Shown here: piece after piece, positions 8,905-45,091 of the stretch
Numbering within the stretch: the stretch's first letter is position 1
Layout: each line of letters opens with the position of its first letter
Assembly: GCA_003151615.1 (NCBI GenBank)
Contig: PLXZ01000004.1
Coordinates: 173,285-237,284, forward strand
Direction: 5' to 3'
DNA: 64,000 nt
Source of the DNA: Candidatus Tayloriibacteriota bacterium
Lineage (GTDB): Bacteria; Patescibacteriota; Minisyncoccia; Phycocordibacterales; PALSA-1337
The notes under the pieces: generated by a model
The model's database searches: none
What the model saw: only the letters and a program-made list of their open reading frames with translations
Told to the model about the DNA's origin: nothing
Position numbers and translations under genes: made by a program

Positions 8905-9222
8905 GGGGTTTGTTACATCAAAGTATGTAACTTTATTTCCGTTGAATCCTACTTGAACGCAAACGATAGAAGCACGATGGTCAAAGCGTTAAGAACCACC
9001 AATGCCAAAACCATTTGCCATTTTACCGGAAATGGATTCTGTAAAATATAGACTGTATAGATTATTGCAACGATCGCCGCACCAATGAAGTTTCCTTTTA
9101 TCATGTTCTCATTATATCACATCAAGTCCTATCTTGCTTCTTATGTTGAACGAAGTTAAAACCAATTTACGCAAATAAAAAAGGGCAAGGACTTTCATCC
9201 TTGCCCTCTTGAAAACGCAAAT

Positions 9223-12455: not shown

Positions 12456-13013
12456 TTACTGGGCGTCCTTATAGGCGCATTCATTAGTGCAATAAACCGC
12501 GACTTGATTTGGGGGAATGGGTTTACCGCAACCTTCTCTTTCGCACTTGCGGCCCATGGGATGTGTATTTGGGGCGAACCATCCTCTGTTCTCGCACGCG
12601 GAGCACCCATGGCCGCCGCAATTGTCGCATTGGACAGAATCGGTGGGATAATTTTTATCCTTGGGAATATCCATAATGTTTCGTTCAACCACTGCTTGTT
12701 CGCTTGCCTGGCACTCTTCCACATGACGTTTGTAAGCGCGATGATGAATGTTTTTACCACACTTGGGACAGACATTGCAACATGGTGCAAAGTGCATCGT
12801 GTGACTTCCAGGTTCATGGCATGGACAATGACAGATGTCAGGGTCGGAACAACAATCATTGACAAGAGAGGGCGGTTTCATTTTTGGTTTTGCCCGGAAT
12901 TCTGCGTTGACTGCTTCCGAGGATTTTTTCCACGTCTTCGGGTCACCCAAGCCCTTAAAGGCTTCTTTGCGGGAGATGGGCCGACCACCCAGAGGAGTTT
13001 TTGGTGTGCTCAT
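12456..13013 (-). CDS. Cysteine-rich hypothetical protein (multiple CxxC/CxC pairs, probable Zn-binding)
   Basis: 185-aa ORF with >20 Cys in paired motifs (CHCPCH, CNVCPKCG, CDNCGGHGCSAC, CEREGCGK). Chosen over the overlapping ORFs 12423..13103(+) and 12437..12865(-) for protein-like composition. Ambiguous. Confidence 0.4.
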   Translation of the reverse strand: MSTPKTPLGGRPISRKEAFKGLGDPKTWKKSSEAVNAEFRAKPKMKPPSLVNDCCSDPDICHCPCHEPGSHTMHFAPCCNVCPKCGKNIHHRAYKRHVEECQASEQAVVERNIMDIPKDKNYPTDSVQCDNCGGHGCSACENRGWFAPNTHPMGRKCEREGCGKPIPPNQVAVYCTNECAYKDAQ

Positions 13014-13104
13014 GGTCTTTGTTCTGGTTTCGACTCACTACGAGTAAGTCTGTTCGCTGATTCGCATACTACAACTTATCTACTCAATAGTCAATTTTTA
13101 TAAA

Positions 13105-13197
13105 TTAATTTCGATCCCTGTTCGGGTATCCCAAAACCACCTTGATATACAATGCTGAAAAAGTGCTCCGCATGTTGAACGAAGTCAGAGCCTGTAT
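13105..13197. repeat. Composite repeat: family B (tRNA-3'-end-like TTCGATCCCTGTTCGGGTATC...) fused to family C (GCTCCGCATGTTGAACGAAGTCAGAGCCTG)
   Basis: Family B recurs at 18031 and 18942. Family C recurs at 14058 and 28421, the latter being the 3' end of the serine recombinase ORF. Confidence 0.6.
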
Positions 13198-13205
13198 TTA
13201 GATAA

Positions 13206-13235
13206 TAAAAAAGAGGCGAACCGAAGTTCGCCTCA
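13206..13235 (-). terminator. Family-T terminator hairpin copy 2 (gaggcgaaccgaagttcgcctc)
   Basis: Same loop as copy 1 with compensatory stem changes. Downstream of 13252..13626(-). Confidence 0.55.
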
Positions 13236-13251
13236 TTGAATGTTAATGTTG

Positions 13252-13626
13252 TCAGTGAGCAAGGTCAGGCCGACCGATGGGAAGAAACGCACTCCCACCG
13301 AGGATCCGGAGCCATAGGTCGGACTTAAGCGGTCCGATCCATCCCTCCGGAATCACACCGTCTGCGATGATGTCCGCCGATATTGCCTTGGCCAACTCGG
13401 CACGTGCTTCCTGGCGGCATCCGTCTTTGCCCGGCCCGGTATCAATTTCGATGCTGATGATCGAGTAGTTCACGTCGAGCGGTCCGACGTCGTGGACACG
13501 AAGCAGGACGTCTTCCATGTTCATCTTCAGATGAGTGGCGACTGCCTTGTGGGCGCTGTCGCGGATTTTTACCACCGCAGCATTGTCAGCACGACTGCGA
13601 TCTCGCCATATGGTTACGAGGGGCAT
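13252..13626 (-). CDS. Tautomerase-superfamily-like protein (Met-Pro1 N-terminus), paralog 1
   Basis: Starts MPLVTIW... (Pro1 after the initiator Met is the catalytic hallmark of 4-OT/MIF tautomerases). AGGAG RBS 6 nt upstream of this Met. The 150-aa listed ORF extends upstream without an RBS. 92% identical paralog at 15515..15889. Confidence 0.45.
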   Translation of the reverse strand: MPLVTIWRDRSRADNAAVVKIRDSAHKAVATHLKMNMEDVLLRVHDVGPLDVNYSIISIEIDTGPGKDGCRQEARAELAKAISADIIADGVIPEGWIGPLKSDLWLRILGGSAFLPIGRPDLAH

Positions 13627-13657
13627 TTTGGTCTCCTTTCTTTTGGTTGCTGGTTGA

Positions 13658-13897
13658 TTAACTTTTGGTTGACTGTGCTTTTTTGTAAGCTTCGTCATCC
13701 GCAACGGTTTCCTTGATGCCGGCAGTAAGGATGTTTAATCCCATAAGTGTCAGGATTAATCCAGACGTAGTGACTGCTTTGAATAAAACGACTATGTTTC
13801 CTGGGTTTGCTGCGTATTGGGCAATATAGGGTGCCGCAACTCCTAAGCAGTATGATCCGATGATCATCAGTGCTCCGACAACTGTTTTAATTTTCAT
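13658..13897 (-). CDS. Small two-TM membrane protein
   Basis: 79-aa ORF with two hydrophobic helices and a charged C-terminus. Confidence 0.4.
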   Translation of the reverse strand: MKIKTVVGALMIIGSYCLGVAAPYIAQYAANPGNIVVLFKAVTTSGLILTLMGLNILTAGIKETVADDEAYKKAQSTKS

Positions 13898-13937
13898 ATT
13901 TCGATTTATTTTATTGGTTGAGTTTGTTGTAATCTCT

Positions 13938-13989
13938 AGTTAGCCGTTTCCCATAAGACACTTAAATGTCCTCTGGGAAACGGCTAACA
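13938..13989. repeat. Perfect 15-bp inverted repeat hairpin (agttagccgtttccca ...20 nt... tgggaaacggctaac)
   Basis: Read directly. Lies upstream of the 13897 start codon, not in terminator position. Confidence 0.5.
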
Positions 13990-14002
13990 CCAATAGATAT
14001 GT

Positions 14003-14087
14003 CAAAAAACTACTACCATATAATAGTAGCATAATATATAGAATATGTCAAACGTTAGCTCCGTATGCTGAACGAAGTTAGAACCTG
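14003..14087. repeat. Composite repeat: family E (CAAAAAACTACTACC...ATATGTCAAAC) + family C copy 2
   Basis: Family E recurs at 16301..16372. Family C copy 2 (gctccgtatgctgaacgaagttagaacctg) is 25/30 identical to copy 1. Confidence 0.55.
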
Positions 14088-14093
14088 TTTGAA

Positions 14094-14121
14094 ATAAAAA
14101 AGACGAACCGAAGTTCGTCTC
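14094..14121 (-). terminator. Family-T terminator hairpin copy 3 (agacgaaccgaagttcgtct)
   Basis: Identical to copy 1. Downstream of 14141..14821(-). Confidence 0.55.
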
Positions 14122-14140
14122 GTGTAAAGTAATTTACGTT

Positions 14141-14821
14141 TTAACTCACTTCTGGCCATTGTTCGATAAGGGCTTCCAAAAGTTGTTCCATTTCCCACCG
14201 GCCTCCACAGTGAGGGGTAATGATCAATGAATCCAGCACGTTTTGCTCGTTTTTTCTGGATGCTAGCGTATCAAGTTTTCTCTGTTTGTCACAATCACAG
14301 GTGACCCCCACGATGAACGCACGGGGAACATCCTGTCGAAATTGCTGTAGGAATTTCAGGCAGGCATCAAATGCACTGAGGCCCATGTATGACACCAAGA
14401 GAATATTTGTATCTGTGTCAATGTTTCGCGCGATTTTATTTTCAACTTGTGCTTGGGCTTGAGCACCGATTGTTTCTTCGCGCTCAAGATACGTGGCCAT
14501 CATTTCCATGTCTGCGCGAGCCATCGCCGTGGCGCCGAATAAGAGATCAAACGGCGGTCGGTCGTCATGCCGTCCATGTGACAGGGTGATTTGCAGACCC
14601 TGTTTCCCGGGAGTAGCAAGCAGTCCATCTTCATAACTGCCGATGCCGTTGTAGCTCACAAAGATTGCACGCAGTGTTTTTTTATTGCGAATCACATTTG
14701 GCAAGATGTCGCTAATAAATTGGTCAGTGTTTTTTTGTTGGATTAAGGATGTGGTCGGCACGCTGTACCTCCGTAGTTGTTGGTTTTTGTTTAAGGGAGA
14801 AGTAAAATACTTCTCTGACAA
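14141..14821 (-). CDS. Hypothetical protein
   Basis: 226-aa ORF, protein-like composition, no motif recognised. Confidence 0.45.
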   Translation of the reverse strand: MSEKYFTSPLNKNQQLRRYSVPTTSLIQQKNTDQFISDILPNVIRNKKTLRAIFVSYNGIGSYEDGLLATPGKQGLQITLSHGRHDDRPPFDLLFGATAMARADMEMMATYLEREETIGAQAQAQVENKIARNIDTDTNILLVSYMGLSAFDACLKFLQQFRQDVPRAFIVGVTCDCDKQRKLDTLASRKNEQNVLDSLIITPHCGGRWEMEQLLEALIEQWPEVS

Positions 14822-14865
14822 TTTGAGTAAAGACTACAATATATGTTTTACTTTGTAAATAGGTG

Positions 14866-14968
14866 GCTCCCCGAACATGAGATTGTTATAACTATATTTT
14901 CCGACTTTGATTACATGAATCGGTTGTACGGACAGCTGTTGTTTATGAAGGCGATGGGGAAATAAAAA
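14866..14968. repeat. Family A repeat copy 1 (GCTCCCCGAACATGAGATTGTTATAAC...CAGCTGTTGTTTATGAAGGCGATGGGGAAATAAAAA)
   Basis: ~100-bp element, ~85% identical copies at 17208..17310 and 18089..18179, truncated copy at 18997..19020. Confidence 0.6.
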
Positions 14969-15013
14969 TCTCCCCGTAGCTTTCGCTCGTAGGAGAGTTG
15001 TGTTAAAAACAGC

Positions 15014-15361
15014 TTATTTTTTTACGGAAGTGAAAGGTTTCTTATCGGTTGAACCGTTAAGATAATCTATCCACGCGCATTGCCGAAAATAAGTTGAACG
15101 GGCATACATCGTAATGAGTTCCTCGCGCTCGACCGGCGTTTTGGCTTCGTCCAGTTTCTGTCTGGCTTCTGGCGAGAGCGATTCATTATTCATGTGATCT
15201 CGCTCTTCGTCCGTCAACATTGTTAGTCTGCGTTCAAAGTTGAGCCGGTGGAGCAGGTCATCAATACTTTCAATGCGTTCGTCTTTTTTCAATGTGTCAA
15301 GAAATGCGAGCAGCACTTCTTCAGTTTTTTGAAACTCTGCAGTTTTTGTCGGTTCACTCAT
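15014..15361 (-). CDS. Hypothetical acidic protein
   Basis: 115-aa ORF preceded by the family-D promoter. Confidence 0.45.
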   Translation of the reverse strand: MSEPTKTAEFQKTEEVLLAFLDTLKKDERIESIDDLLHRLNFERRLTMLTDEERDHMNNESLSPEARQKLDEAKTPVEREELITMYARSTYFRQCAWIDYLNGSTDKKPFTSVKK

Positions 15362-15419
15362 AAAGGTATCTTTCTTCGAAGTGCCGTTTATGGATTTTTG
15401 GCACGGTTTCCTATCCCAA

Positions 15420-15450
15420 AATCTATTCCTTTTACGGAAAATGTCAATGA
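15420..15450 (-). promoter_or_regulatory. Family-D promoter copy 3 (TTGACA-N17-TAGATT, TTCC-N7-GGAA spacer repeat)
   Basis: Reverse complement reads tcaTTGACAttttccgtaaaaggaaTAGATT, ~55 nt upstream of the 15361 start. Confidence 0.5.
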
Positions 15451-15469
15451 ATACTCATAAATGAGTATA

Positions 15470-15499
15470 AAAAAAGGGGCGAACCGAAGTTCGCCCCAT
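15470..15499 (-). terminator. Family-T terminator hairpin copy 4 (ggggcgaaccgaagttcgcccc)
   Basis: Same loop with compensatory stem. Downstream of 15515..15889(-). Confidence 0.55.
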
Positions 15500-15514
15500 T
15501 GAGTGTTGATATTG

Positions 15515-15889
15515 TCAGTGAGCAAGGTCAGGCCGACCGATGGGAAGAAACGCACTCCCACCGAGAATTCGGAGCCACAGGTCGGACTTAAGCGGTCCGA
15601 TCCATTCCTCCGGAATCACGCCATCGGCGACGATGTCCGCCGATATTGCTTTGGCCAACTCGGCGCGTGCTTCCTGGCGGCATCCGTCTTTGCCCGGGCT
15701 GGTGTCAATCTCGATGCTGATGATCGAGTAGTTAACATCTAGCGGGCCGACGTCGTGGACACGAAGCAGGACGTCGTCCATGTTCATTTTCAGGTGAGTG
15801 GCGACTGCCTTGTGGGCGCTGTCGCGGATTTTTACCACCGCAGCATCGTCAGCACGACTGCGATCTCGCCATATGGTTACGAGGGGCAT
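15515..15889 (-). CDS. Tautomerase-superfamily-like protein, paralog 2
   Basis: MPLVTIWRDRSRADDAAVV..., 124 aa, differs from paralog 1 at ~9 residues. Flanking DNA is also duplicated. Confidence 0.45.
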   Translation of the reverse strand: MPLVTIWRDRSRADDAAVVKIRDSAHKAVATHLKMNMDDVLLRVHDVGPLDVNYSIISIEIDTSPGKDGCRQEARAELAKAISADIVADGVIPEEWIGPLKSDLWLRILGGSAFLPIGRPDLAH

Positions 15890-15929
15890 TTTGGTCTCCT
15901 TTCTTTTGGGTTGTTGGTTGAAGCTTCGT

Positions 15930-16199
15930 CTAATTCAGCAGGGTAATTATACAATCGCCATTTATCATGACGATATTTCCAGTTTTGTCGTCCTGGAAAT
16001 AGTATCCGTTGCTTTGGCTTTCGTTTTCAATCTTGCCCGAGGTGGTCCACTGACCGATGAGTTTGCCTCCTGAATAGAGTTCAACTTTATGTTTTTTGCC
16101 CCAAGCTGAGAAGGCCGCTCGGTTTGCGTTTGAGCAACCGGATAGCATACCCAAACTTAACCCGGCAACCAGTATCATCAGACTAATTTTAAGTTTCAT
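15930..16199 (-). CDS. Lipoprotein
   Basis: Internal start MKLKISLMILVAGLSLGMLSGC gives a signal peptide with lipobox L-S-G-C. Confidence 0.45.
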   Translation of the reverse strand: MKLKISLMILVAGLSLGMLSGCSNANRAAFSAWGKKHKVELYSGGKLIGQWTTSGKIENESQSNGYYFQDDKTGNIVMINGDCIITLLN

Positions 16200-16300
16200 T
16201 TTTTTCCTATTTTTGTAGTTGGTGTGCAAACCAAACTTGGCTGCATCTTTCAAGGCTCGAATAAGCCCTCAAAGACGCAGCCAATTTAATAGGGGAATTT

Positions 16301-16372
16301 CAAAAAACTATTACGTAACTATGATAGCATAAGATATAGTATATGTCAAACACGAGCTTCCCGAACGGGAAT
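16301..16372. repeat. Family E repeat copy 2 followed by GCTTCCCGAACGGG (degenerate GCTCC-core site)
   Basis: caaaaaactattacgtaactatgatagcataagatatagtatatgtcaaac parallels 14003-14057. Confidence 0.5.
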
Positions 16373-16449
16373 AAAAAAGGCCGCGCACTTAAGATGGCAC
16401 GGCCTTGGATATTTTGATTGAGGTTGTTTGACCCGCCTTGAGAAGATTG

Positions 16450-17112
16450 TTAATGGCAACCACCACTGTAGTGATAGACAGCTGCCTTTTCCCCCAACTG
16501 TTCTTGAATGTTACGATCCTCACAGATTGCAATGTCAACAATTTTGCCTTCGTAATGCGCTTTACGATACTCGTTGGCAGGCACGACTTGATATTTATTC
16601 CAAACAATCATTACAAGGTCTGCATTGCCGGTGTATTTATCTTTTTTGCCGAGCCATAGGACCTGATTGAATCCGAGTTTGTTAACCCCCTTTTTTGAAA
16701 GACTATTCTTTTTTGTCATAGTCTTTAGAATCTCTGCGGCAGGTATTTCCTCAGGAAAAAACAAATCCGTCGGGACTGCATTGTCTGGGAGTCGATCCAA
16801 GGTTTTTCCGACAGAAAATTTTTTTTCGCTCGGAACAATCGCATATAGCACAGGAGAGAATGGACTGTCACCATTGTAATCCTCAGGTCGTGACAATGCT
16901 AAGGTTGAATGACCTGCCGCGGGGCCAGTATGATGAATGTTTATCCCGTCGATCACCAGACCGCCGGAAGGTAGTATGAGTCGTTTCACTGGTCCAGATT
17001 GATATGATTTCCGCCAAGATTCAGGGCTTTTAGTTTCGTTTTTCATAAATTCTTTCGAAGTTCTTTGTTTCAAACCCCTAATTAGGTGGTTCAGATTTAC
17101 TGATGTGAACAC
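16450..17112 (-). CDS. Hypothetical protein
   Basis: 220-aa ORF. No motif recognised. Confidence 0.4.
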   Translation of the reverse strand: MFTSVNLNHLIRGLKQRTSKEFMKNETKSPESWRKSYQSGPVKRLILPSGGLVIDGINIHHTGPAAGHSTLALSRPEDYNGDSPFSPVLYAIVPSEKKFSVGKTLDRLPDNAVPTDLFFPEEIPAAEILKTMTKKNSLSKKGVNKLGFNQVLWLGKKDKYTGNADLVMIVWNKYQVVPANEYRKAHYEGKIVDIAICEDRNIQEQLGEKAAVYHYSGGCH

Positions 17113-17207
17113 TACAATATAAATATTAAAGAGTCAATAATTCGTAATGGTTCGAATCCCATTCTGGGTACGAAAAAAGACCCATATAAATGGTTCTTTT
17201 TTCACAT

Positions 17208-17310
17208 GCTCCCCGAACATGAGACTATTATAACCATATTTTCAGACTTAGATTACATGAGTCGGTTGTATAGTCAGCTGTTGTTTATGAAAGCGATGGG
17301 GAAATAAAAA
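17208..17310. repeat. Family A repeat copy 2
   Basis: gctccccgaacatgagactattataaccatattttcagacttagattacatgagtcgg... Preceded at 17140-17168 by a tRNA-3'-end-like fragment ggttcgaatcccattctgggta. Confidence 0.55.
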
Positions 17311-17358
17311 ACCGCCCAACAAAGTGCCGTTGGGTCGGCTTTTGAATATGGACGGGGT

Positions 17359-17598
17359 TTAACTACGCTCGATGACTTTAGCGGTAACGACTGATGTAGG
17401 AGGTCTTTCAAAAACTGAATCAGGCACTTCAAACTCTACCGTCACGACCGCTCGATCTTTGGGTTGAGACAGGTAGCCTTCACCGTAATGTTCTTGATTA
17501 TGTTCTTCAGATTGTTTCAACAACTCATCAATCCATTGTGAAGCCGCAATAGCCTTGTTGTAACCCTTTGAAACTTCGATATGCGCTGTAACTTTCAT
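17359..17598 (-). CDS. Hypothetical small protein
   Basis: 79-aa ORF. Confidence 0.4.
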   Translation of the reverse strand: MKVTAHIEVSKGYNKAIAASQWIDELLKQSEEHNQEHYGEGYLSQPKDRAVVTVEFEVPDSVFERPPTSVVTAKVIERS

Positions 17599-17638
17599 TG
17601 ATAGTATCCTTTCTTTTTGTTTCTAGTTTAAATACTGG

Positions 17639-17971
17639 TTAGCAACAACCGCCACCGCCTGAGCAATGGCCTCCAGTTGCCCGAATGTATCGGCGAAGCG
17701 AGTCAGTGTCATAATCCTCACCGCCGATTGCTCCTGCATATACTTGTATTTTAGCATCAGGGGCTTGCAGATGTTGGACGCTGTGTTTGTAGGGTGTCTG
17801 CTTTATAAGCGACTTCCAGTTATCCAAGAGTTTTTCTTTATCATCAGACCATGTGACAAAGTTTATTTCACCCGTCCCGCATTTACAGGAGAGAGAATGT
17901 TGATATCCACGTAGGTAGGCGTTCACCTCTGGACTCCTTCCACAACGGCAGGGAATTGGTGTCATATTCAT
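17639..17971 (-). CDS. Hypothetical Cys-rich protein ending CSGGGGCC
   Basis: 110-aa ORF with CRCG...CKCG and a C-terminal Cys/Gly cluster. Confidence 0.4.
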   Translation of the reverse strand: MNMTPIPCRCGRSPEVNAYLRGYQHSLSCKCGTGEINFVTWSDDKEKLLDNWKSLIKQTPYKHSVQHLQAPDAKIQVYAGAIGGEDYDTDSLRRYIRATGGHCSGGGGCC

Positions 17972-18030
17972 AATTTTGTTTTCAAGTTGTCTGATTCAAA
18001 GATTACCTCTAACTGATTAAAAGTCAATCA

Positions 18031-18179
18031 ATTTCGATCCCTATTCGGGTATCGCAAAACCACGTTGATATACAAGGCTGAAAAAAGTGCTCCCCGAACA
18101 TGAGATTGTTATAACCATATTCTCGGATGTGGATTACATGAATCGACTGTATGGTCAGCTGTTGTTTATGAAGGCGATG
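18031..18179. repeat. Composite repeat: family B copy 2 + family A copy 3
   Basis: atttcgatccctattcgggtatcgcaaaaccacgttgatatacaaggctgaaaaaagtGCTCCccgaacatgagattgttataacc... Confidence 0.55.
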
Positions 18180-18346
18180 TCAGTATGACTTGCAAGGACT
18201 TGCTTTTATACCATATATGTGATATAATTAAGCCAGTAATCCTTAATCGTATGGTTAAGTCGTTTCGGTACCCTTTGGGTATGTGAAATAAGGGGGTATG
18301 TGTTTTCCTCCACTAAGACACAAGTTCATTGGAAAGAAATTAACGT

Positions 18347-18880
18347 ATGTTAAAAGACTACATCATCATCAACGGCCCTCCGAAGTTCGAACTCATGCTC
18401 GCTTTATTCCATACTGCGAATATTGTGTTCAAAACTGAATGCGGTCAGGTCATCACTGTAATGGTAACCCAGGTCAAAAAACTTAACGACGATGGCCACG
18501 ACGCTTGGAATATCAGGGGCTTCATCATTTTGGATGACGGAGACTATCGGAAAGATAGTCACGAATGCAGAGCCATTTTCTCCAGCAAAAACCGTAAAGG
18601 TAAGCTGACAGACCTCGGTCTGAAAAACATGAAGTTCGAGCCTGAATACCTTGAACGTCTGTCTGATGACCAACTTCGGAAGAGGGTCGCTTCTGACCAG
18701 AAAATTGCAGAACATTTCAAGGCTATACTCGATCAATACATGTGCGGACTCAATCCCCGTGATCGGTTGATTGCGGAAGTTATTGCCGCGCAGGAGTTGG
18801 CCTTGGTGACGATGGATATTCAGTCCAAACACAGCAAATATACTAATGACCGTTCACGTAACACTGCGATTGCAGCGTAA
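18347..18880 (+). CDS. Hypothetical protein
   Basis: 177-aa ORF, the only plus-strand gene in the cassette region. Confidence 0.45.
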   Translation: MLKDYIIINGPPKFELMLALFHTANIVFKTECGQVITVMVTQVKKLNDDGHDAWNIRGFIILDDGDYRKDSHECRAIFSSKNRKGKLTDLGLKNMKFEPEYLERLSDDQLRKRVASDQKIAEHFKAILDQYMCGLNPRDRLIAEVIAAQELALVTMDIQSKHSKYTNDRSRNTAIAA

Positions 18881-18896
18881 GTGCGACAGACATTTG

Positions 18897-18937
18897 TAAT
18901 TAAAACGGCGACCAGAAATGGTTGCCGTTTTTTTATT
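18897..18937 (+). terminator. Rho-independent terminator
   Basis: aaaacggcgaccagaaatggttgccgttttttt hairpin + T7. Confidence 0.6.
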
Positions 18938-18941
18938 ACTT

Positions 18942-19020
18942 GAGTTCGATCCCTGCTCGGGTGCTCGAAAACTGTGTTGATACACAAGGTTGAAAAAAGT
19001 GTTCGCCGAACATGAGAGGA
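18942..19020. repeat. Family B copy 3 + truncated family A (gttcgccgaacatgagagg)
   Basis: gagttcgatccctgctcgggtgctcgaaaactgtgttgatacacaaggttgaaaaaagtgttcgccgaacatgag. Confidence 0.5.
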
Positions 19021-19042
19021 AGATACTCTGACGCATTAGCCT

Positions 19043-19626
19043 TTAACCAACTTGTCTGATCCAATCTCGGATAAACATGCCCACTCGTTCAATATCAGTC
19101 GGTGCTAGTTCACCACTATGCATGATAATATTTCTTGATTTTTCCAAAGTTTCAATTATTTGCTTTGCCCACTCCACTTTACCAACGTGCACTTCAAAAA
19201 ATTTCCAATTTTCAGGCTTAGCCATGATAGAGATGAGGTCTCCAAATTCAGTGTAATAAATCATTGAATCACCCCTAGCGGTAAGCCAGCGAACATCTTT
19301 TTCTGACTTTTTTCTATTCTCTGCATTAGTCCTGATTTCTTTCTTTACACATAAATCCCACCAATTTTCACCTTTTTCTTCAAGAAGTTTTTTAGCAATA
19401 AACTCTCTTACTGAATTTTCAAAGGAACAGATAGCAGTATACACAACTGCCATTCGTCTCGATTTTACAACGAATTCCTCGTCCATAAGCGGAAGACCTA
19501 GTCGTTTAGATGTTTCTGCTTCCCATACTTCGGAGAAATCACCCTTTGACTTTCTACCAGCCTTATCTAAAGCCTCTTCGGTTAAAAGCCCCCTAAAGGT
19601 AAAAGAATATAATCGGTTAGAATCCA
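19043..19626 (-). CDS. HEPN-domain protein (C-terminal Rx4H motif)
   Basis: C-terminus ...EKSRNIIMHSGELAPTDIERV carries the R-x4-H HEPN signature. Internal Met MDSNRLY chosen because the upstream partner ORF ends at 19629 (abutting genes). Confidence 0.45.
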
Positions 19627-19628
19627 TA

Positions 19629-20279
19629 TTAAAACAGATGTTTTTTAAGGCTTTTAAATAGTGCGTCGTATACAGCGGCATCCCTTGATTCCGGTAGGTG
19701 AATTTGGATATTGTAATGCAATTCTGTCTTACGTAGTTTCCCACCGACACTATCCTCGTCTGTGTCTTCCTGTGCGGCAGGTGGAGTCTCTTTTGCGGAC
19801 TCAGGCTTTTGATTGTCATTCTTCTCTTTACCGCCCTGAACTTTTTTTGCTGTATTACTCCACTCAGCATAAGCGGCAAGAGTCACGAATGTATTAGCCA
19901 TTAAATGCAAAACCTTATCTGAAATTTTACCTTGAGTTAATGTTCTAAGTTTGTTTTTGACTTCTGACTGCGTAAGTTCGTTTGCCTTTGTGTTAACAGC
20001 GAATAAATCCCCATATGCTACAGTAATCGCATTTGCCAAGACTTGTTTAGATTGAGATTGATCTAAAAAGTTGAAATATATTTCTGTTGGTACAGCATTG
20101 GCATCTAGAAACCCCAATCCTTTAAGTAGTCCTATGTACAGACGGTCATTTGTACTTTTAAACTCAAGACTTTCTAGGAATTTCTGCGTAAAGGTCTCAG
20201 GCGCTTTCGCCGTAATTAGACTGTTAAAAAATGACTCAAGATTTTTTGTCGTAACCAAATATGAGGGTGTAAGTGCCAT
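19629..20279 (-). CDS. Hypothetical protein, upstream partner of the HEPN gene
   Basis: Start at MALTPSYLVTTKNLESFF..., stop abuts the HEPN start. Two-gene operon. Confidence 0.4.
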   Translation of the reverse strand: MALTPSYLVTTKNLESFFNSLITAKAPETFTQKFLESLEFKSTNDRLYIGLLKGLGFLDANAVPTEIYFNFLDQSQSKQVLANAITVAYGDLFAVNTKANELTQSEVKNKLRTLTQGKISDKVLHLMANTFVTLAAYAEWSNTAKKVQGGKEKNDNQKPESAKETPPAAQEDTDEDSVGGKLRKTELHYNIQIHLPESRDAAVYDALFKSLKKHLF

Positions 20280-20724
20280 AAAAGTATTGTTATTTATATA
20301 GCGGAAATATACCATGTACAAATAAAAAAACAATACGGTAAAATTAAGTCAATTTACCTTATTTTTCGCTTCTATCGCTCAAGAATAAATGGTATAATAC
20401 AGGGTAGAAAGTGAACTATCTGTCGATTTTTCCTTAAATGCCGTTTCTGATAAAAATCAAATAGATTCATTATCAAAGTTTGCTAATCAAAAATTAAAAT
20501 CATCATGAAGAAAACAATCATTCTCAATAGAAGTGCTGTAACAGGAAAAATAGTTACAAAGGCGTATGCGAAGAAGCATCCGCGCACTACCGAACGAGAG
20601 GTCTACAAAGTTAAGAAATAAGTACATAAATGATATCGCTGTCGGAAACGGCATTTAGGGAAAAATAACATAAAGACATACTTTCCATTAGGCTTTTGCA
20701 GAGGAATGCCAGCACGAGCGATTT

Positions 20725-21249
20725 CTACGCGTTGAGCGCAGTATTTGCGTAGTAGTTTAAGTCTTCTAGCGTAATACCTGCTCGCCGTATGATTAGATAC
20801 TTGTCCTCTGATGAAAAATAGGTCTTCCGAAGCATTCTTGAAAACGTCCGTGCCTTGTATGTCGGTGCTTCATATTTCAGTCGGCAACAGACACGACAGA
20901 GGGGTGATTCAAGAGTGCTGTATTCGTAGAGGTGCTTTGCTCGTCTTTCACAACCATTGCAGATAAAGTAAAAAATGAAGCCACGCCTTAGGTTTGAGGG
21001 TACGTAGTCCACTTTTTGTTCGTTCCAATATGGAATGCCGTCATTGAAAACAGCTATTGATTTAAATGTCGTATATCGTGGATTGTTCAATAGCCCTTTC
21101 ATATACGAAACTTCGCCCTCATGGTTTGTGTTGAGTATACGACCTTCTTTTTCTCTGATGTTTATTTTGAAGTTTCTTACATAGTCGCCAATAGTGAAGC
21201 GCAGATATCCGCTACTGTTAAATATTTTTTTGTGTTGAGAGATCCTCAT
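20725..21249 (-). CDS. Hypothetical protein with CxxC...CxxCC cluster
   Basis: 174-aa ORF, FICNGCERR...CRVCCRLKY. Confidence 0.4.
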   Translation of the reverse strand: MRISQHKKIFNSSGYLRFTIGDYVRNFKINIREKEGRILNTNHEGEVSYMKGLLNNPRYTTFKSIAVFNDGIPYWNEQKVDYVPSNLRRGFIFYFICNGCERRAKHLYEYSTLESPLCRVCCRLKYEAPTYKARTFSRMLRKTYFSSEDKYLIIRRAGITLEDLNYYANTALNA

Positions 21250-21316
21250 AATCGTTAATGAACGCTAATGAGTTTAATATTATTCGGATCTGATTTTTTA
21301 CACAACCGACAGGAAG

Positions 21317-23058: not shown

Positions 23059-23060
23059 AT

Positions 23061-23792: not shown

Positions 23793-23863
23793 TTGATTTT
23801 TTATTATTAAATTTCAACCGACGTTATCCTTATATTAAATACTACGCTTCAAAAAATAAACCT

Positions 23864-24472: not shown

Positions 24473-24752
24473 ATCAGTTTCCCAATATGGCGAGTTAAGC
24501 GACCCTATGATGGGTTTTTTATGCTTAACTCGACTTTCTTCACCATGCCATTGGATTACTCAAATGGTTTAGGCTACTTCTAACATATTCAGTTGTGGCC
24601 TAATCATACAATAAACGCCAATATCTGCAATGGTGATTAAATCAGAGCAAGCGCAGGACAAAGTTCTTTTTGTGAGGTAGTATATTTCTATGCGGACACA
24701 GGTTTACAGCTGTTAGAGCCGAGTTTTAAGCGAAAGAGCCACCTATAAAGAT

Positions 24753-26822: not shown

Positions 26823-26837
26823 AAAATATATAAAATT

Positions 26838-28457
26838 ATGAAAAAGAAGCAAGTAAATGAAAAACCATTAGAAGACATAAAATACGCCGCCAGTTATATC
26901 AGAGTGTCGACCCAAGACCAGCTCAACGGGCTTTCAATTGAGGTTCAAGAAAAACTGTGCCAACGAAGAGCCGAAGAAGCAGGGTACAAAGTATCTGAAG
27001 TCCTTGACGACGGAGGTATTAGCGGACACAACGACAATCGCCCAGGATTGCACCGCTTGAAAGAATTGATTACGACAAAAAAGATAACGGCTATAGTCGC
27101 TCTATCGTCCGAACGCCTTTTCCGCAACACCCGCTCGCATCTCGACTTTATGGAGTGCGTCTTTACTTACGGTGTTCATCTCCTTTACGTCAATGGGGCA
27201 ACACCTGAAAACAACGCAAGTTCAAGGATGCAGGACACAGTTCTTGCAAGTATGAATCAGTTTTATAGAGATCAAATATCTGACAAAGTGAAAGGTGTCC
27301 TCTATGAAAAGGCCAAAATGGGCTATTACCCCTCTCGACCTCCAGCAGGATATATGAATGTTCCAAACCCAGACAAGAATGCAGAACGCATGGCGCAAAA
27401 GCTCGTAGTGCCAGACCCAAACACAGCTCCATTCATCAAAGAAATGTTTACGCTCTACGCCACAGGAAATTTCAACGTCTACGACCTTTGCGACATTATG
27501 TACGAAAAGGGCTTGCGAAGCAGAAAGGATGGCAAAATATCGCCAAGTAGACTTCACGATATGCTGAGAAGCCGTTTTTACATCGGTGAGCTTGTATGGG
27601 GGCCAATCAGCAACATAGAGGGGAAACACGAGCCTATCATTGATGAAGCGGCCTTTAATCAAGTGCAAATGATTTTAACAGCACGCAATCACCACGCCTG
27701 TCGGCGGCGGAAATACCAATGGCTTTTAAACGGCTATCTCTACTGCTACAAGCACGACAACCGTTATACGGCCGAATGGCACACAATCGGAAATAGACGC
27801 ATTGCATATTACCATTGCGCCAACAAAAGCGGTTGCGGCAAGTATTCCGAACAAGTAGACCTAGAAGCTAAAGTTGCCGAAAAATTCAAGGACTTGGAGT
27901 TTAGTCCTGCGTTTATTAAAGAGGTGATCGCCGAAGCAAAGGCGACATTCAACGAACAGCGAAAGGGCTACGACAAAAAGAAACAAGGCCTCATCAATCA
28001 GCGTACCGCTTTCGACCGACGGCGCAAGGTTATGGAAGACAAACTTTTCGACGGCGTAATCGGCGATGACGACTTCAAAAAGAACCGAGCCGAAGTTATG
28101 GCTGAAATACAACGGATTGAGGTGAAGCTATCGGACTTGGAAAAAAGCAGGGAGGTCAGAGTTGATGAAGCGGAGCAGATACTTCGTTTTACGAAGAATA
28201 TTTACGACGCATATCAAAAGGCATCGCCAGATCTCAAGCGGCACTATTTAGGCTTCTTTTGGTCACGCTTTGAGGTAAGTGATAAGGTTATAATAACGTC
28301 TACTCCCTCGCTTCTTTTCGCTGAACTTTTGAAGCTAAAACACGCTATTTTTAGAAGGTCAGAAACGCAAAAACACAAAGGACTGAATAGATCTAACAAA
28401 GTTATATTAGGAGGTCTACGGCTCCGCATGTTGAACGAAGTCAGAACCTGCATTTAG
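26838..28457 (+). CDS. Large serine recombinase (resolvase N-domain + recombinase domain + Zn-ribbon + coiled coil)
   Basis: AASYIRVSTQDQ (catalytic Ser), DGGISGHNDNRPGL, recombinase-domain block, C...C.C...CGK zinc ribbon. 539 aa. The last 30 nt equal repeat family C. Confidence 0.8.
   Translation: MKKKQVNEKPLEDIKYAASYIRVSTQDQLNGLSIEVQEKLCQRRAEEAGYKVSEVLDDGGISGHNDNRPGLHRLKELITTKKITAIVALSSERLFRNTRSHLDFMECVFTYGVHLLYVNGATPENNASSRMQDTVLASMNQFYRDQISDKVKGVLYEKAKMGYYPSRPPAGYMNVPNPDKNAERMAQKLVVPDPNTAPFIKEMFTLYATGNFNVYDLCDIMYEKGLRSRKDGKISPSRLHDMLRSRFYIGELVWGPISNIEGKHEPIIDEAAFNQVQMILTARNHHACRRRKYQWLLNGYLYCYKHDNRYTAEWHTIGNRRIAYYHCANKSGCGKYSEQVDLEAKVAEKFKDLEFSPAFIKEVIAEAKATFNEQRKGYDKKKQGLINQRTAFDRRRKVMEDKLFDGVIGDDDFKKNRAEVMAEIQRIEVKLSDLEKSREVRVDEAEQILRFTKNIYDAYQKASPDLKRHYLGFFWSRFEVSDKVIITSTPSLLFAELLKLKHAIFRRSETQKHKGLNRSNKVILGGLRLRMLNEVRTCI
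28421..28450. repeat. Family C repeat copy 3, coincident with the 3' end of the serine recombinase ORF
   Basis: gctccgcatgttgaacgaagtcagaacctg, 28/30 identical to 13166-13195. Confidence 0.6.
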
Positions 28458-28534
28458 ACCTAAGATCAGCTTTCTAGGAGGCCTTTCCACAGATCCGAGT
28501 ACCGCATATTGGTTATCTCTGTTAAAATACTGGT

Positions 28535-30525: not shown

Positions 30526-30526
30526 C

Positions 30527-42668: not shown

Positions 42669-42997
42669 AATCATATAATCCGAATGATTCAGGAAAAAAG
42701 TTTCTGGTTGATGAATGTCAAAAAATAAGTATAACAACCTATATTCGACAAGCTAAAGCAAAGCTCAAGAATGCACTACTCATGAGCACACTTGAGATGG
42801 ATAGCAAGGCCATAGAATTGACCCCCTCAAAGACCTCATTCCATGGCGAAAGATATTGGTTCAAATGCCCTAAATGCAGTAAGCGCGCCGGCACATTATT
42901 CGTACATCCACTGAATCATGAAATTGGATGTAGAAAATGCCTTAACCTTGAGTACAGAAGCAGAAGATATAAAGGCATGATTGAGGAGTCATTTTAA
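42665..42997 (+). CDS. Hypothetical zinc-ribbon protein
   Basis: CPKCSKR...CRKC, 110 aa. Start overlaps the upstream stop (ATGA). Confidence 0.4.
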   Translation: MKSYNPNDSGKKFLVDECQKISITTYIRQAKAKLKNALLMSTLEMDSKAIELTPSKTSFHGERYWFKCPKCSKRAGTLFVHPLNHEIGCRKCLNLEYRSRRYKGMIEESF

Positions 42998-43056
42998 GCC
43001 CGTAGACTTATCTTGTATTAGCGGTATTGTATGTGTTAAGACAACTAACAAAAATA

Positions 43057-44759
43057 AAATGAAAAACGAAGCGCAAATAATAAATTACGATGTGTATCTC
43101 CGTAAATCGAGTGAGGCGGAAGATAAACAGATTCAGTCCATCGATGACCAGAGGCGAGAACTGAATGAATATGCAAATAAGAATAATCTTCACATAGTAG
43201 GTGAGTTTGAGGAATCGCAGAGTGCACATCATCCAGGGCGGCCGATTTTTAACAAAGTCATGAAAAGGATCGAGAAGGGAATATCGACTGGATTACTAGT
43301 TTGGCACGCCAACAGAACCTCGAGAAATCCAGTTGATAGTGGAACAATAATAAACCTTATCGATGAAAAGAAACTGATACATGTTAGGACGCCGTCACAT
43401 ATTTACGGTAATACTTCCACGGAGAAAATGATGCTTGCACTTGAGTGTATGATGGCTAAAAAAGATTCGGACGATAAAAGCGAAGCGGTAAAGAGAGGTC
43501 TACGCGGCAGATATAGAAAGGGACTTCCAAATGGCGTGGCACCTATCGGATTCCTAAATGATATGTCAGTTGAAAAAGGTAATCGGGGATGGCTTGTGGA
43601 CGCCGAAAAGCTCCCTCTTATTGGCCAACTTCTTCAGCTCTGTCTTACCGGAAGATATTCAACCAGAGATCTCCTAAATATCGCAAATGAGGATATGGGA
43701 CTCCGCACCCAACTCCGCAAAAAACAGGGAGGTAAAAAACTTGTGCTCTCATATCTGACAGATGTCATCCTTAAGGGAGAGGTATACGCCGGATTTTTCT
43801 ACACCGCTGATGGTGAGAGACATGATTTGGCTGAAAGCATCCCAAGACTAATTACAGAAGAACAACACTGGCAAATTAGAAAGATATTAGGTGATAGAAA
43901 CAGGCCTCGAGCGTCAAAAAATAAAATGACCTTCGCGTATACGGGACCGACAAAGTGTGGAGGGTGCGAGGGATCAATCACTGCTGAACACAAGTACCAG
44001 CTTATTTGCGCCTGTAAATTAAAGTTTGTTTATCTTAATAAGACACATTGTCCGGGGTGCGGAGTTTCAATAAAAAACATAGAAAAGCCCACCTATCTTC
44101 ATTACATTTATTACCACTGCACTAGGAAGAAAGATTTACTTTGCCGTGAGGGTAGTGTGCAGGAATTATACATAGATAATCATCTAGCAACATACTTCAA
44201 AGAAAATTTCAAAATCTCGAAAGCGCTCCATGAATGGTGTATCGAAAATATCGAAGCCCTTGATGCTGGCGATGCTAAAAACGGATCCGAAAAGAAAATA
44301 TCTTTGGAAGCGACCATCGCTAAAAAGCAAAATGAATACAAAGAGCTTGTTCTCATGAAGACCCGCGGACTTATCAGTGATAGCGATTTTGTAGAGCTTA
44401 AGACGAGCCAAAAAGCCGAAATTGAGGCCTTACAGCGGACTTTGAGCAATACGCCAAATAAGGACCAAACATCAAGCGTTAAAGCGCGTAGAGCCTTTAC
44501 GCTCGCATTAGGAATTGAAGAAGTATTCAAGAACGGAACACCTCAAGAGAAAAAAGAGGTGTTATCAGAGATTGGTTCGAACCTAACTTTAAAAGACAAA
44601 AAGCTCAATGTTTACAACACAGGAATCTATGAACGGATCATAAACGGACTACTTAGGGCGAAAGCAGAAAATCCTCGGTTCGAACCTGAATATATCTTAG
44701 ATACATCAAGTCAGAATAAAGATTTTATGCTCGCACGACCAACTCTGCTCCGGGAGTAG
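43057..44759 (+). CDS. Large serine recombinase (second copy, distinct sequence)
   Basis: YDVYLRKSSEAEDKQIQSIDDQRRELNEY (resolvase catalytic domain with Ser), recombinase domain, CGGCEGS...C zinc ribbon. Stop codon lies inside the 3' end of the adjacent tRNA gene. Confidence 0.75.
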
Positions 44760-45091
44760 GGATCGAACCTACGACCAATCGCTTACATCGCTCCTCTTGT
44801 TGCCAAAAGGGATGGACTATATCATTTCCATACATTGTCAATCTGATTTGACGAATGATTAGGGACGAGGGGCTTCGCGGGCTGTTTTGAAATTTTTGTA
44901 TTTCATAACGCCAGCTACTCTTTAAAAAGATAGTCTCTACACCTTCCCATTTTTTGAATGGGCTCGGCTCGGGATTGCCCGCAGTTTTGTGCTGCGGGTT
45001 TCCCCGATTTCTCCTCGTTATTCGACCAGGCTTTTACCTGGAAGCTGCAAGTTGTTTACAGGCGACTGCTCTACCGCTGAGCTATCCCGGA
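44748..45091 (-). tRNA. tRNA gene (probably tRNA-Asn GUU) interrupted by a group I intron in the anticodon loop
   Basis: 5' exon TCCGGGATAGCTCAGCGGTAGAGCAGTCGCCTGT (acceptor, D-arm GCTC/GAGC, anticodon stem GTCGC). 3' exon TAAGCGATTGGTCGTAGGTTCGATCCCTACTCCCGGAG (anticodon stem GCGAT, T-arm GTAGG-TTCGATC-CCTAC, 7-bp acceptor complement). Exons are separated by ~270 nt. Confidence 0.6.
44786..45057 (-). ncRNA. Group I self-splicing intron within the tRNA
   Basis: P-like ACTGCGGGCAA, Q-like AACCCGCAGC, R-like GTAGAGACTAT and S-like GATATAGTCC elements in order. P1 possible between exon CTGT and GCAG (terminal U.G). Omega-G precedes the 3' exon. Confidence 0.55.

What the first reader, a model, noticed from the sequence alone, without database searches (positions are those of the whole stretch)
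13105..18965. tRNA-3'-end-like fragments embedded in the repeat array (remnants of serial integration at a tRNA)
Family B copies (TTCGATCCCTGTTCGGGTATC, TTCGATCCCTATTCGGGTATCG, GAGTTCGATCCCTGCTCGGGTGCTCG) and the 17140-17168 segment (GGTTCGAATCCCATTCTGGGTA) read like a T-loop (TTCGATCC / TTCGAATCC) plus acceptor 3' strand. They lie on the plus strand, opposite to the intact tRNA at 44.7 kb, and differ from it. Multiple degenerate tRNA-end copies are the expected scars of repeated element integration and att-site duplication.
Basis: seen in the sequence. Interest (0 to 1): 0.55.

Follow-up and report, generated by a model that had tools for sequence, protein, structure and literature searches.

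The report
Serine-recombinase insertion scars beside tRNA-Asn
The T-loop-like repeats are real: they are the left arms of recombination junctions left where large serine recombinases inserted mobile DNA, unit after unit, at the last bases of a tRNA-Asn gene in a small-genome Paceibacteria bacterium.

Summary
The four fragments exist as described. They are copies of one ~58-nt module, which I call L1. Its first ~21 nt match the T-loop/T-stem/acceptor 3' strand of the window's own tRNA, a tRNA-Asn(GUU) at 44748-45091(-) that ARAGORN misses because of a group I intron. Infernal does not call the fragments tRNA, and they lie on the opposite strand.

Every L1 ends at a 5-nt core, GCTCC, the reverse complement of the last bases of tRNA-Asn. 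Both large serine recombinase (LSR) genes of the window end across this core. Unrelated left modules (L1, L2, L3, LSR 3' ends) meet a few right modules there: R2, R1, or the tRNA.

R2 is the native 33-codon C-terminal tail of this LSR family. Of 120 homologues, 44 have tails with clear antisense-tRNA motifs. In four related contigs the sequence diverges immediately after the tRNA's GGAGC, and in one contig L1 abuts an intact tRNA-Asn.

The array is therefore a stack of LSR attachment-site junctions built by serial insertion at a tRNA end. I rate it a new variant of tRNA islands and SCC-like arrays.

The parts
13110..13164 (+). The T-loop/acceptor-like mirror segment is 13110-13130. It is followed by an A-rich spacer and ends at core 13165-13169.
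   Evidence: (D3).
13165..13202 (+). Core GCTCC plus R1 module. In frame it reads LRMLNEVRACI*, the same tail as recombinase LSR#1.
   Evidence: (D4).
9136..9173 (+). Degenerate R1 module (GCTTCTTATGTTGAACGAAGTTAAAACC). This is the leftmost junction of the array.
   Evidence: (D4).
13999..14095 (+). L2 module (a minus-strand sigma70-like promoter) joined at core 14058 to R1 copy 3.
   Evidence: (D8, D4).
14827..14965 (+). L3 left arm joined at core 14866 to R2 copy 1 (32 codons, LPEHEIVITIFSDFDYMNRLYGQLLFMKAMGK*).
   Evidence: (D2).
16297..16375 (+). L2 copy 2 joined at a degenerate core (GCTTC, 16356) to the short R3 module.
   Evidence: (D8).
17149..17307 (+).
18033..18188 (+). L1 copy 2 (18033-18088) joined at core 18089 to R2 copy 3.
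   Evidence: (D3, D2).
18945..19017 (+). L1 copy 3 (18945-19000) joined at a degenerate core (GTTCG, 19001) to R4, an R2 remnant truncated after 17 nt. Proposed left junction of element E1.
   Evidence: (D3).
26838..28457 (+). Large serine recombinase LSR#1 (539 aa). Its last 11 codons lie beyond core 28421-28425 in an R1 module. Proposed right end of element E1 (19001-28420).
42981..44759 (+). Large serine recombinase LSR#2 (22% identical to LSR#1). Its ORF ends ...TLLRE* across core 44747-44751 inside the tRNA 3' end. Proposed right end of element E2 (28421-44746).
44748..45091 (-). tRNA-Asn(GUU), the integration target. Exons are 45091-45058 and 44785-44748. The group I intron is 45057-44786.

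Best explanation
The fragments are copies of a ~58-nt left-arm module (L1) of attachment-site junctions used by large serine recombinases (LSRs) that integrate at the extreme 3' end of tRNA-Asn(GUU).

Site layout. Each junction has the form left arm | GCTCC | right arm. GCTCC is the reverse complement of the tRNA's terminal bases (about positions 70-74). The strand-exchange dinucleotide is inferred to lie inside it. The LSR gene runs across its own attachment site. In the free element the gene continues into R2, a conserved 33-codon tail. After integration it reads a few codons into the antisense of the tRNA, or into the right arm of the next element.

How the array grew. Each incoming unit recombines with the tRNA-proximal junction and pushes older units away from the tRNA. 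I infer two elements that keep their recombinase:
- E1, about 19001-28420, ending in LSR#1.
- E2, about 28421-44746, ending in LSR#2.
To their left, between 9136 and 19001, lie seven short units without a recombinase. Each has a right-arm tail module, a terminator, 1-5 genes (mostly on the minus strand), a promoter, and a left arm (L1, L2 or L3). These are decayed or trans-mobilised units.

The T-loop-like piece. L1 carries at its far end a degenerate mirror-image copy of the tRNA half-site (T-loop to discriminator), 35 nt beyond the core.

Shown: the modular junctions, the ORFs crossing the core, the tRNA hotspot, and R2 as an LSR tail. Inferred: the crossover position, the insertion order, trans-mobilisation, and the origin of the mirror copy.
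For: 1. One core, shuffled arms. In the window, L1|R1 (13165), L2|R1 (14058), L3|R2 (14866), L2|R3 (16356), L4|R2 (17208), L1|R2 (18089), L1|R4 (19001), LSR#1|R1 (28421) and LSR#2|tRNA (44747) all switch partner at GCTCC. About 20 R2 copies from 10 other contigs have the same sharp left boundary with unrelated upstream DNA.
2. Both LSR ORFs cross the core in the same frame, G|CTC|C.
3. R2 is coding and belongs to the LSR. 44% of differing codons are synonymous in frame, against 15% and 7% in the other two frames. A profile search finds R2 fused to LSR C-terminal fragments P0008 and P0013. Full-length homologues P0204, P0254 and P0257 end in R2-like tails.
4. Of 120 LSR#1 homologues, my tail classification gives 44 with antisense-tRNA tails (QDSNLRP and similar). 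About 65 stop 2-4 residues after the junction (LLRE, LLRG, WGA and similar), which I read as the same state.
5. The tRNA is Asn(GUU). In related contigs L014, L015, L016 and L017 the DNA downstream of the tRNA diverges immediately after GGAGC, giving three distinct downstream sequences. Two of them are LSR 3' remnants.
6. In L006, L1 abuts an intact tRNA-Asn at the same core. In L010, L1 abuts a 19-20-nt tRNA-Asn 3' fragment.
7. Site geometry fits LSR sites. R2, R1 and R6 carry ..AAC at +24..+26. The tRNA carries CGAAC (its T-loop) at +17..+21, a 5-nt offset. The LSR#1 arm has GTTATA at -20..-15, which mirrors R2 about the core. The offset expected between attP and attB half-sites is from my own knowledge of LSR structures.
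8. The orthologue of window gene 2358-3281 lies 8.4 kb from tRNA-Asn in L017, against 41.5 kb here.
9. L1-left shares TTCGATCCCTRYTC with the tRNA only.
Against: - Canonical LSRs recombine attP with attB, not attP with an existing junction. The serial-insertion rule is an inference.
- The left arms share no motif next to the core.
- The arm symmetry holds for the LSR#1 clade with R2, but not clearly for LSR#2 or for L5-type remnants.
- L1 lacks a correctly spaced GTT motif, and its tRNA-like piece lies outside a normal ~50-bp LSR site.
- Simple conservative recombination at one attB does not explain why there are several L1 copies.
- No circular or empty-site form of these particular elements was seen.
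- The similarity of L1-left to the tRNA is modest on its own: chance about 0.05 for the best copy.
- L020, a more distant relative, has no L1 immediately downstream of its tRNA-Asn.
Confidence: 0.7

Rival explanations
1. Classical tRNA-island scars. Each fragment is a displaced copy of a tRNA 3' end, duplicated as the att core when an element, typically with a tyrosine integrase, integrated into a tRNA on the + strand.
For: Every fragment starts at the T-loop (TTCGA). Four of seven family members carry CCA at a fixed register. They share a 14-mer with a real tRNA. L010 holds a genuine 19-20-nt tRNA-Asn 3' fragment that also begins in the T-loop.
Against: No + strand tRNA and no T-stem 5' strand is found next to any of 10 copies. 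The CCA is one base out of register. No tyrosine recombinase was found among the ~50 window ORFs scanned with Pfam. The modules switch partners 56 nt to the right of the fragment, not at it. The tRNA covariance model gives no match at E<=10.
Confidence: 0.08
2. Ordinary intergenic repeats. L1, L2, D5 and D6 are promoter and terminator modules spread and shuffled by homologous recombination, as in the promoter-stem-loop modules of T4-type phages. On this reading the T-loop likeness is chance.
For: L1 is always next to the -35 box (GTCAAT) of a minus-strand promoter. L2 is a near-consensus promoter. Terminator D5 and promoter D6 recur. A cassette gene is duplicated with different neighbours. The T-loop motif alone is not enriched.
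Against: Homologous recombination does not explain one 5-nt breakpoint shared by unrelated left arms, two recombinase ORFs and the end of a tRNA. It also does not explain R2 being a recombinase tail. L1 abuts tRNA-Asn in L006, and the shared 14-mer has 0.09 expected matches. Homologous recombination probably does add to the shuffling.
Confidence: 0.12
3. Integron-like attC sites. L1 plus the start of R2 is an imperfect inverted repeat (TGTTCGGG ... CCCGAACA, ~75 nt) that folds as single-stranded DNA and is recombined as a hairpin.
For: The inverted repeat exists in L1|R2 junctions. The region has the look of a cassette array of short, mostly unknown ORFs.
Against: Folding is no better than shuffled sequence (z = -0.3, -0.6 and +0.9). 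L2|R2 and L3|R2 junctions have no left repeat. The canonical RYYYAAC...GTTRRRY core-site order is absent (read from the sequence). No IntI-type tyrosine recombinase was found.
Confidence: 0.03
4. L1-left is a functional half-site. On this reading it is an accessory or alternative binding site for the recombinase that mimics the tRNA arm in mirror orientation, and is not a fossil.
For: It is the mirror image of the tRNA right arm, including a degenerate core (GGTGC against GGAGC). Its length and distance to the core are conserved in 10 copies from several metagenomes. Its T-loop variant tracks that of the local tRNA: TTCGAAT in L006, TTCGATC in the window.
Against: LSRs are not known to need accessory sites (own knowledge). 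The piece lies 35-56 nt from the core. Only four genomes were compared, and L010 and window copy L4 break the tracking.
Confidence: 0.2

Closest known systems
tRNA-gene genomic islands built by serial integration (Islander-type islands; tycheposons of Prochlorococcus, bioRxiv 10.1101/2020.12.28.424599)
   Same: The target is a tRNA gene. New elements insert at the same site and push older ones into the island. Fragmented integrases and att remnants are scattered through the island, and the cargo is defence and niche genes.
   Different: Those islands are made mainly by tyrosine integrases that cross over inside the tRNA and leave direct partial-tRNA repeats. Here the enzymes are large serine recombinases. 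The crossover is at the last bases of the tRNA, so nothing is duplicated. The junctions are marked by a 5-nt core plus recombinase-tail modules.
Staphylococcal cassette chromosome (SCCmec; CcrAB/CcrC large serine recombinases) - from my own knowledge
   Same: Large serine recombinases insert at the 3' end of one conserved gene. Composite tandem arrays form, bounded by short repeated cores, and they include units that lack a recombinase and can be mobilised in trans.
   Different: The SCC target is the protein gene rlmH (orfX), not a tRNA. The ccr genes do not span the attachment site. The host is a Firmicute, not Patescibacteria. Membership was not tested; LSR#1 and LSR#2 were not compared with Ccr proteins.
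Phage large serine integrases (phiC31, Bxb1, A118/LI) - from my own knowledge
   Same: Resolvase plus Recombinase domains. Short sites with a central crossover. Arm motifs mirror each other and sit about 5 bp further out in attP-type arms than in attB-type arms.
   Different: Their targets are usually protein genes or intergenic DNA, and attP lies beside int. Here attP lies inside int, 33 codons before the stop, and a large share of the clade reads into tRNA ends.
Integration-dependent immunity of cluster G/N/P mycobacteriophages (attP inside a gene, so that integration changes the protein's C-terminus) - from my own knowledge
   Same: The attachment core lies inside a coding sequence, so the integrated and free forms encode proteins with different C-terminal tails.
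   Different: There the split gene is the repressor and the integrase is a tyrosine recombinase. Here the split gene is the serine recombinase itself. No regulatory role has been shown.
Integrons
   Same: An array of short, mostly single-gene units of unknown function, each bounded by a recombination site.
   Different: There is no IntI and no folded attC. Here the units carry their own promoters and terminators, unlike typical integron cassettes (own knowledge).

Membership tests
tRNA gene or tRNA 3' fragment | Match to the tRNA covariance model (Rfam RF00005) or to ARAGORN | tested here: not met
   No tRNA or tmRNA match at E<=10 in 7000-30000 or 13000-19100. ARAGORN finds none.
tRNA gene or tRNA 3' fragment | T-loop consensus followed by T-stem 3' strand, acceptor 3' strand, discriminator and CCA in register | tested here: inconclusive
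   The T-loop TTCGAWY is present in all copies. A CCA-like triplet is present in 4 of 7 family members, but 14 nt after the loop instead of 13. The implied acceptor would start with U, A or C.
tRNA gene or tRNA 3' fragment | Sequence homology to a resident tRNA's 3' end | tested here: met
   TTCGATCCCTRYTC is shared only with tRNA-Asn, with 0.09 expected by chance. These are the best + strand matches in the window, but only marginally above background: scores 25, 23 and 20 against a background top of 18-22.
Classical tRNA-island att repeats (tyrosine integrase) | Direct repeat of the tRNA 3' part in the same orientation as the tRNA, at the island boundary | tested here: not met
   The copies are inverted relative to tRNA-Asn. 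The module boundary is 56 nt away at GCTCC.
Classical tRNA-island att repeats (tyrosine integrase) | Tyrosine integrase gene in the island | tested here: not met
   Pfam scans of about 50 ORFs found two Resolvase-domain proteins and no Phage_integrase domain. ORFs below 60-70 aa and some mid-sized ORFs were not scanned.
Large serine recombinase attachment sites | Large serine recombinase (Resolvase catalytic domain plus Recombinase domain, >450 aa) next to the site | tested here: met
   LSR#1 has PF00239 and PF07508. LSR#2 has PF00239 and aligns to LSR#1 over 475 aa. Both ORFs end across the core.
Large serine recombinase attachment sites | Hybrid junctions: the same short core joins interchangeable left and right arms, with no target duplication | tested here: met
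   Nine junctions in the window and more than 20 in other contigs.
Large serine recombinase attachment sites | Imperfect dyad symmetry of arms about a central dinucleotide, with attP-type motifs about 5 bp further out than attB-type | tested here: inconclusive
   The LSR#1 arm (GTTATA, -20..-15) mirrors R2 (TATAAC, +21..+26). AAC sits at +24..+26 in R1, R2 and R6, against +19..+21 in the tRNA. The L1, L2, L5 and LSR#2 arms do not fit clearly.
Large serine recombinase attachment sites | Recombination demonstrated (circular form, empty site, or assay) | not testable with these tools
   Only indirect evidence: L1|tRNA-Asn in L006 and different occupants in relatives.
Integron | IntI tyrosine recombinase and attC sites that fold as hairpins with R''/R' cores | tested here: not met
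   No IntI was found (Pfam calls). The folding z-scores of -0.3, -0.6 and +0.9 are no better than shuffled sequence. Several junctions have no inverted repeat.
SCC-like composite arrays | LSR-driven tandem units at the 3' end of one conserved gene, including units without a recombinase | tested here: met
   This is a structural match only. There are two units with an LSR and seven without, between 9136 and 44747, all bounded by the core. Homology to Ccr proteins was not tested.

The most novel reading that the evidence does not exclude
Patescibacteria may carry a cassette platform driven by serine recombinases. On this reading, short recombinase-less gene units bounded by L1 (a mirror-image tRNA half-site) and by an R2 or R1 tail module are captured one after another at the end of tRNA-Asn, and each capture regenerates an L1|tRNA target. 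The arrangement in L006 fits this: X|R2, two genes, then L1|tRNA. The recombinase's own last 33 residues are swapped by every recombination event, because attP lies inside its gene. That swap could act as a built-in switch of activity or directionality. This would be an integron-like or SCC-like gene-capture system based on a tRNA end.
Probability: 0.25. Interest if true: 0.75.

Novelty: new variant of a known kind. Interest (0 to 1): 0.55.

Why it matters
Patescibacteria (CPR) have very small genomes, and how they gain genes is poorly understood. A paper on gene exchange in 125 Patescibacteria genomes does not mention tRNA, integrase or recombinase at all (PMC12455944).

This window and 20 related contigs point to a widespread clade of large serine recombinases that use tRNA 3' ends as landing sites and carry their attachment site inside their own gene. 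They build islands of defence and unknown-function genes: an HEPN pair, methyltransferases with an AlwI-like nuclease, and LOOT RNAs.

Practical consequences:
- The tail of the recombinase ORF reports the state of the element. An R2 tail marks the uninterrupted gene; an antisense-tRNA tail marks integration.
- The GCTCC-type core gives exact island boundaries.
- tRNA-end-specific serine integrases with known arm sequences are candidate genome-engineering tools.

For annotation, the result shows that a 'tRNA-like fragment' can be the arm of a recombination site and not a pseudogene.

Tried and rejected
- tRNA pseudogene. ARAGORN and two permissive Rfam scans found nothing.
- Integron attC. My first impression from the short ORFs and the TGTTCGGG/CCCGAACA inverted repeat. 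Rejected: folding is no better than shuffled sequence, there is no IntI, and many junctions lack the repeat.
- R2 as an independent small gene. Several copies start with ATG or GTG at the junction. Others have TGG, GGG, CAG or GAG with no in-frame start. The profile search showed R2 fused to recombinase C-termini.
- R2 as the tail of a known larger protein, tested by word search. Only a 35-aa ORF was found. The exhaustive profile search was needed.
- A second, convergent tRNA as the source of L1-left. No T-stem 5' strand or further tRNA body lies beside any copy, including L006.
- L1 as the universal native flank of tRNA-Asn. True in L006. The more distant L020 has a plain terminator there, and L006 itself has an R2 junction 2.7 kb away. 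So L1 could equally be the arm of a recombinase-less unit.
- Dyad symmetry at the 28421 junction and between the LSR#2 arm and R1. Only weak 4-6-nt matches by eye.
- The phage search failed (query one base too long) and was not repeated. The viral-contig scan for R2 found nothing.
- LOOT-adjacent ORFs are not homologous.

Full report
**Source.** The window is part of a 562,931-bp ENA metagenome contig (ERZ27254241 k141_1990104). Housekeeping genes (priA, fmt, mreB, frr, an M50 protease and a class II tRNA synthetase) and the closest fmt homologues (Patescibacteria/Paceibacterota MAGs) place it in a small-genome CPR bacterium. The one hit of the repeat in GTDB representative genomes is a Candidatus Paceibacterota MAG.

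**The observation.** Three form repeat family D3. The fourth, at 17149, aligns with them over ~58 nt. The T-loop nonamer alone is not enriched (7 found, 4.1 expected). TTCGATCCCTRYTC with up to one mismatch occurs only in the three copies and in the real tRNA T-arm at 44754-44767(-), with 0.09 expected; I designed that pattern after seeing the sequences. The tRNA covariance model reports nothing at E<=10, and no copy has a T-stem 5' strand.

**The tRNA.** ARAGORN finds no tRNA in the window. Rfam finds a group I intron at 44793-45067(-). Reading the flanks and comparing intronless relatives gives exons 45091-45058 and 44785-44748. The spliced sequence is called tRNA-Asn(GUU).

**Modular junctions.** Reading the repeats side by side showed that they are composite. 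A left module and a right module meet at GCTCC, and the combinations are shuffled:

| Core position | Junction |
|---|---|
| 13165 | L1 \| R1 |
| 14058 | L2 \| R1 |
| 14866 | L3 \| R2 |
| 16356 | L2 \| R3 |
| 17208 | L4 \| R2 |
| 18089 | L1 \| R2 |
| 19001 | L1 \| R4 |

. The same core ends both large serine recombinase genes. LSR#1 (26838-28457) continues into an R1 module (...GGLR|LRMLNEVRTCI*). LSR#2 (42981-44759) continues into the antisense of tRNA-Asn (...PTL|LRE*). On the + strand the tRNA end reads TGCTCCGGGAGTAGGGATCGAACC, so GCTCC is the reverse complement of the tRNA's last bases. Pfam scans of about 50 ORFs found no tyrosine recombinase.

**R2 is a recombinase tail.** R2 reads as 32-33 codons (LPEHEIVITIFSD.DYM..LY.QLLFMKAMGK). 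Scans of public contigs gave 22 copies (18 distinct) in 10 further loci, up to five R1/R2-type junctions per 5 kb (four R2 copies in L008). All have the same sharp left boundary and unrelated upstream DNA. Outside the bases fixed by my search pattern, 44% of differing codons are synonymous in this frame, against 15% and 7% in the other frames. So the sequence evolved as protein. Several copies lack any start codon.

An exhaustive profile search found 29 small proteins with R2 at their C-terminus. Two of them, P0008 and P0013, are C-terminal pieces of LSRs homologous to LSR#1, running straight into R2. Among 120 LSR#1 homologues, my regex classification of the tails gives:
- 3 full-length proteins ending in R2-like tails;
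- 8 ending in R1/R6-like tails;
- 44 carrying the typical antisense-tRNA peptides (QDSNLRP, LESNQRP and similar);
- about 65 stopping 2-4 residues after the junction (LLRE, LLRG, WGA and similar), which I read as the same state

. The attachment core therefore lies inside the recombinase gene, 33 codons before its stop, and a large share of sequenced members are integrated at tRNA 3' ends.

**The tRNA end is a hotspot.** Contigs L014, L015, L016 and L017 share the synteny priA-def-fmt-hpf-tRNA-Asn. Their sequences diverge from each other and from the window immediately after GGAGC, giving three distinct downstream sequences. Two of those are LSR 3' remnants. The orthologue of window gene 2358-3281 lies 8.4 kb from the tRNA in L017 and 41.5 kb from it here.

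**What L1 is.** In contig L006 an intact tRNA-Asn is followed directly by the reverse complement of L1, that is, L1|GCTCC|tRNA. In L010, L1 is joined at the same core to a 19-20-nt tRNA-Asn 3' fragment. Ten L1 copies from five sources keep the same length and layout: TTCGAnnCCTGTTCGGG, about 5 nt, CAAAA, CGTTGATA..GGCTG, A-run, TGCTCC. The first ~21 nt are the mirror image of the tRNA right arm, including a degenerate core. For the best copy this is 15 of 23 positions ungapped, or about 18 of 22 with one gap by my hand alignment. In local alignment the copies are the top + strand matches to the tRNA 3' end in the window, though only just above background. L1 always lies beside the -35 box of a minus-strand promoter. 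It does not fold better than shuffled sequence.

**Site geometry (inference).** Right arms that act as element arms (R2, R1, R6) carry ..AAC at +24..+26 from the G of the core. The tRNA, and R5 with a variant AAA, carry CGAA[CA] at +17..+21; in the tRNA this is the T-loop. The LSR#1 arm has GTTATA at -20..-15, encoded by the conserved V-I residues of the clade. That mirrors R2 about a centre inside GCTCC. A 5-bp outward shift of the outer motif in attP arms relative to attB arms is the known LSR pattern (own knowledge). L1, L2, L5 and the LSR#2 arm do not fit this neatly.

**Model.** Elements whose site is LSR-end|R2 (or |R1) recombine with the junction next to the tRNA. Repetition stacks units, with the oldest farthest from the tRNA. 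In the window this gives E1 (19001-28420, a degenerate R2 through LSR#1) and E2 (28421-44746, R1 through LSR#2). To the left there are seven recombinase-less units, each with a tail module, terminator, gene(s), promoter and left arm. This is the logic described for tRNA islands and tycheposons, which are mostly built by tyrosine integrases. It is also the logic of SCC composite arrays made by Ccr serine recombinases (own knowledge).

Three things remain unexplained:
- why several L1 copies exist, since conservative recombination at one attB does not multiply the left arm;
- why L1 carries a mirror copy of the tRNA arm 35 nt from the core;
- whether the recombinase-less units move in trans.

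**Verdict.** In the paper library I searched I found no description of tRNA-end-targeting serine recombinases in Patescibacteria, or of an LSR gene that spans its own attP. That is absence from that library only.

Noticed in passing
window 44786-45057 (-), within tRNA 44748-45091: A group I intron (Rfam RF00028) interrupts the anticodon loop of tRNA-Asn(GUU) after U35. This is why ARAGORN reports no tRNA. Close relatives (L014, L016, L017) are intronless. L020 has the intron with an inserted ORF that looks like an HNH endonuclease (my reading of its Cys/His motifs). L021 has an ORF with a faint HNH hit at the same place.
   Followed up: partly
window 24454-24575 (-) and 38436-38556 (+): There are two LOOT RNAs (Rfam RF03000, 82-84 bits), one in each proposed recombinase element. 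Each lies immediately upstream of an ORF (23864-24472 and 38616-39614). The two ORFs are not homologous. The position suggests a 5' leader, not a free small RNA.
   Followed up: partly
window 13207-13660 vs 15470-15923: A 124-aa cassette gene, with its terminator and ribosome-binding region, is present twice at about 92% nucleotide identity. The upstream partner genes and downstream modules differ.
   Followed up: no
window 11830, 13209, 14096, 15472 (terminator D5); 10053, 12345, 15404 (promoter D6); 13999, 16297 (promoter L2): The same terminator hairpin (GAGRCGAACCGAAGTTCGYCTC) and the same promoter modules recur behind and in front of unrelated genes, including pyrB and an IMP-cyclohydrolase-like gene. 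This suggests module-level shuffling in addition to the site-specific junctions.
   Followed up: partly
window 26290-26355: A GCTCCCC core (26316) sits roughly midway between two CGGATCCG copies about 48 nt apart, just upstream of the LSR#1 operon. It looks like an intact symmetric site, not a hybrid junction.
   Followed up: no
window 19043-20333 and 28535-32128: The elements carry defence-type cargo: an HEPN_Swt1 plus DUF5343 gene pair in E1, and two D12-class methyltransferases with an AlwI-like restriction endonuclease in E2.
   Followed up: no
L002 6702 and 10873; L008 880 and 5051; L004 5240: Another right-arm module, R5 (GCTCCCCACCTCGGTACCGAAATTTCGAGGTG), has the tRNA-type spacing (ACCGAAA at +15..+21). 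It is joined to L2 and to recombinase remnants. It may be the 3' end of another structured RNA gene used as a target. Rfam did not name it.
   Followed up: no
L010 8591-8740: About 150 nt of GC-rich sequence with no Rfam match follows the 19-20-nt tRNA-Asn fragment, on the minus strand. The fragment starts in the T-loop, which hints at a second kind of breakpoint.
   Followed up: no
L023 6549-6623 and 10001-11653: A more distant homologue (P0204) has an R2-like tail but no GCTCC core at the corresponding place. It lies 3.4 kb downstream of a tRNA-Asn on the same strand, the opposite arrangement to the window.
   Followed up: no
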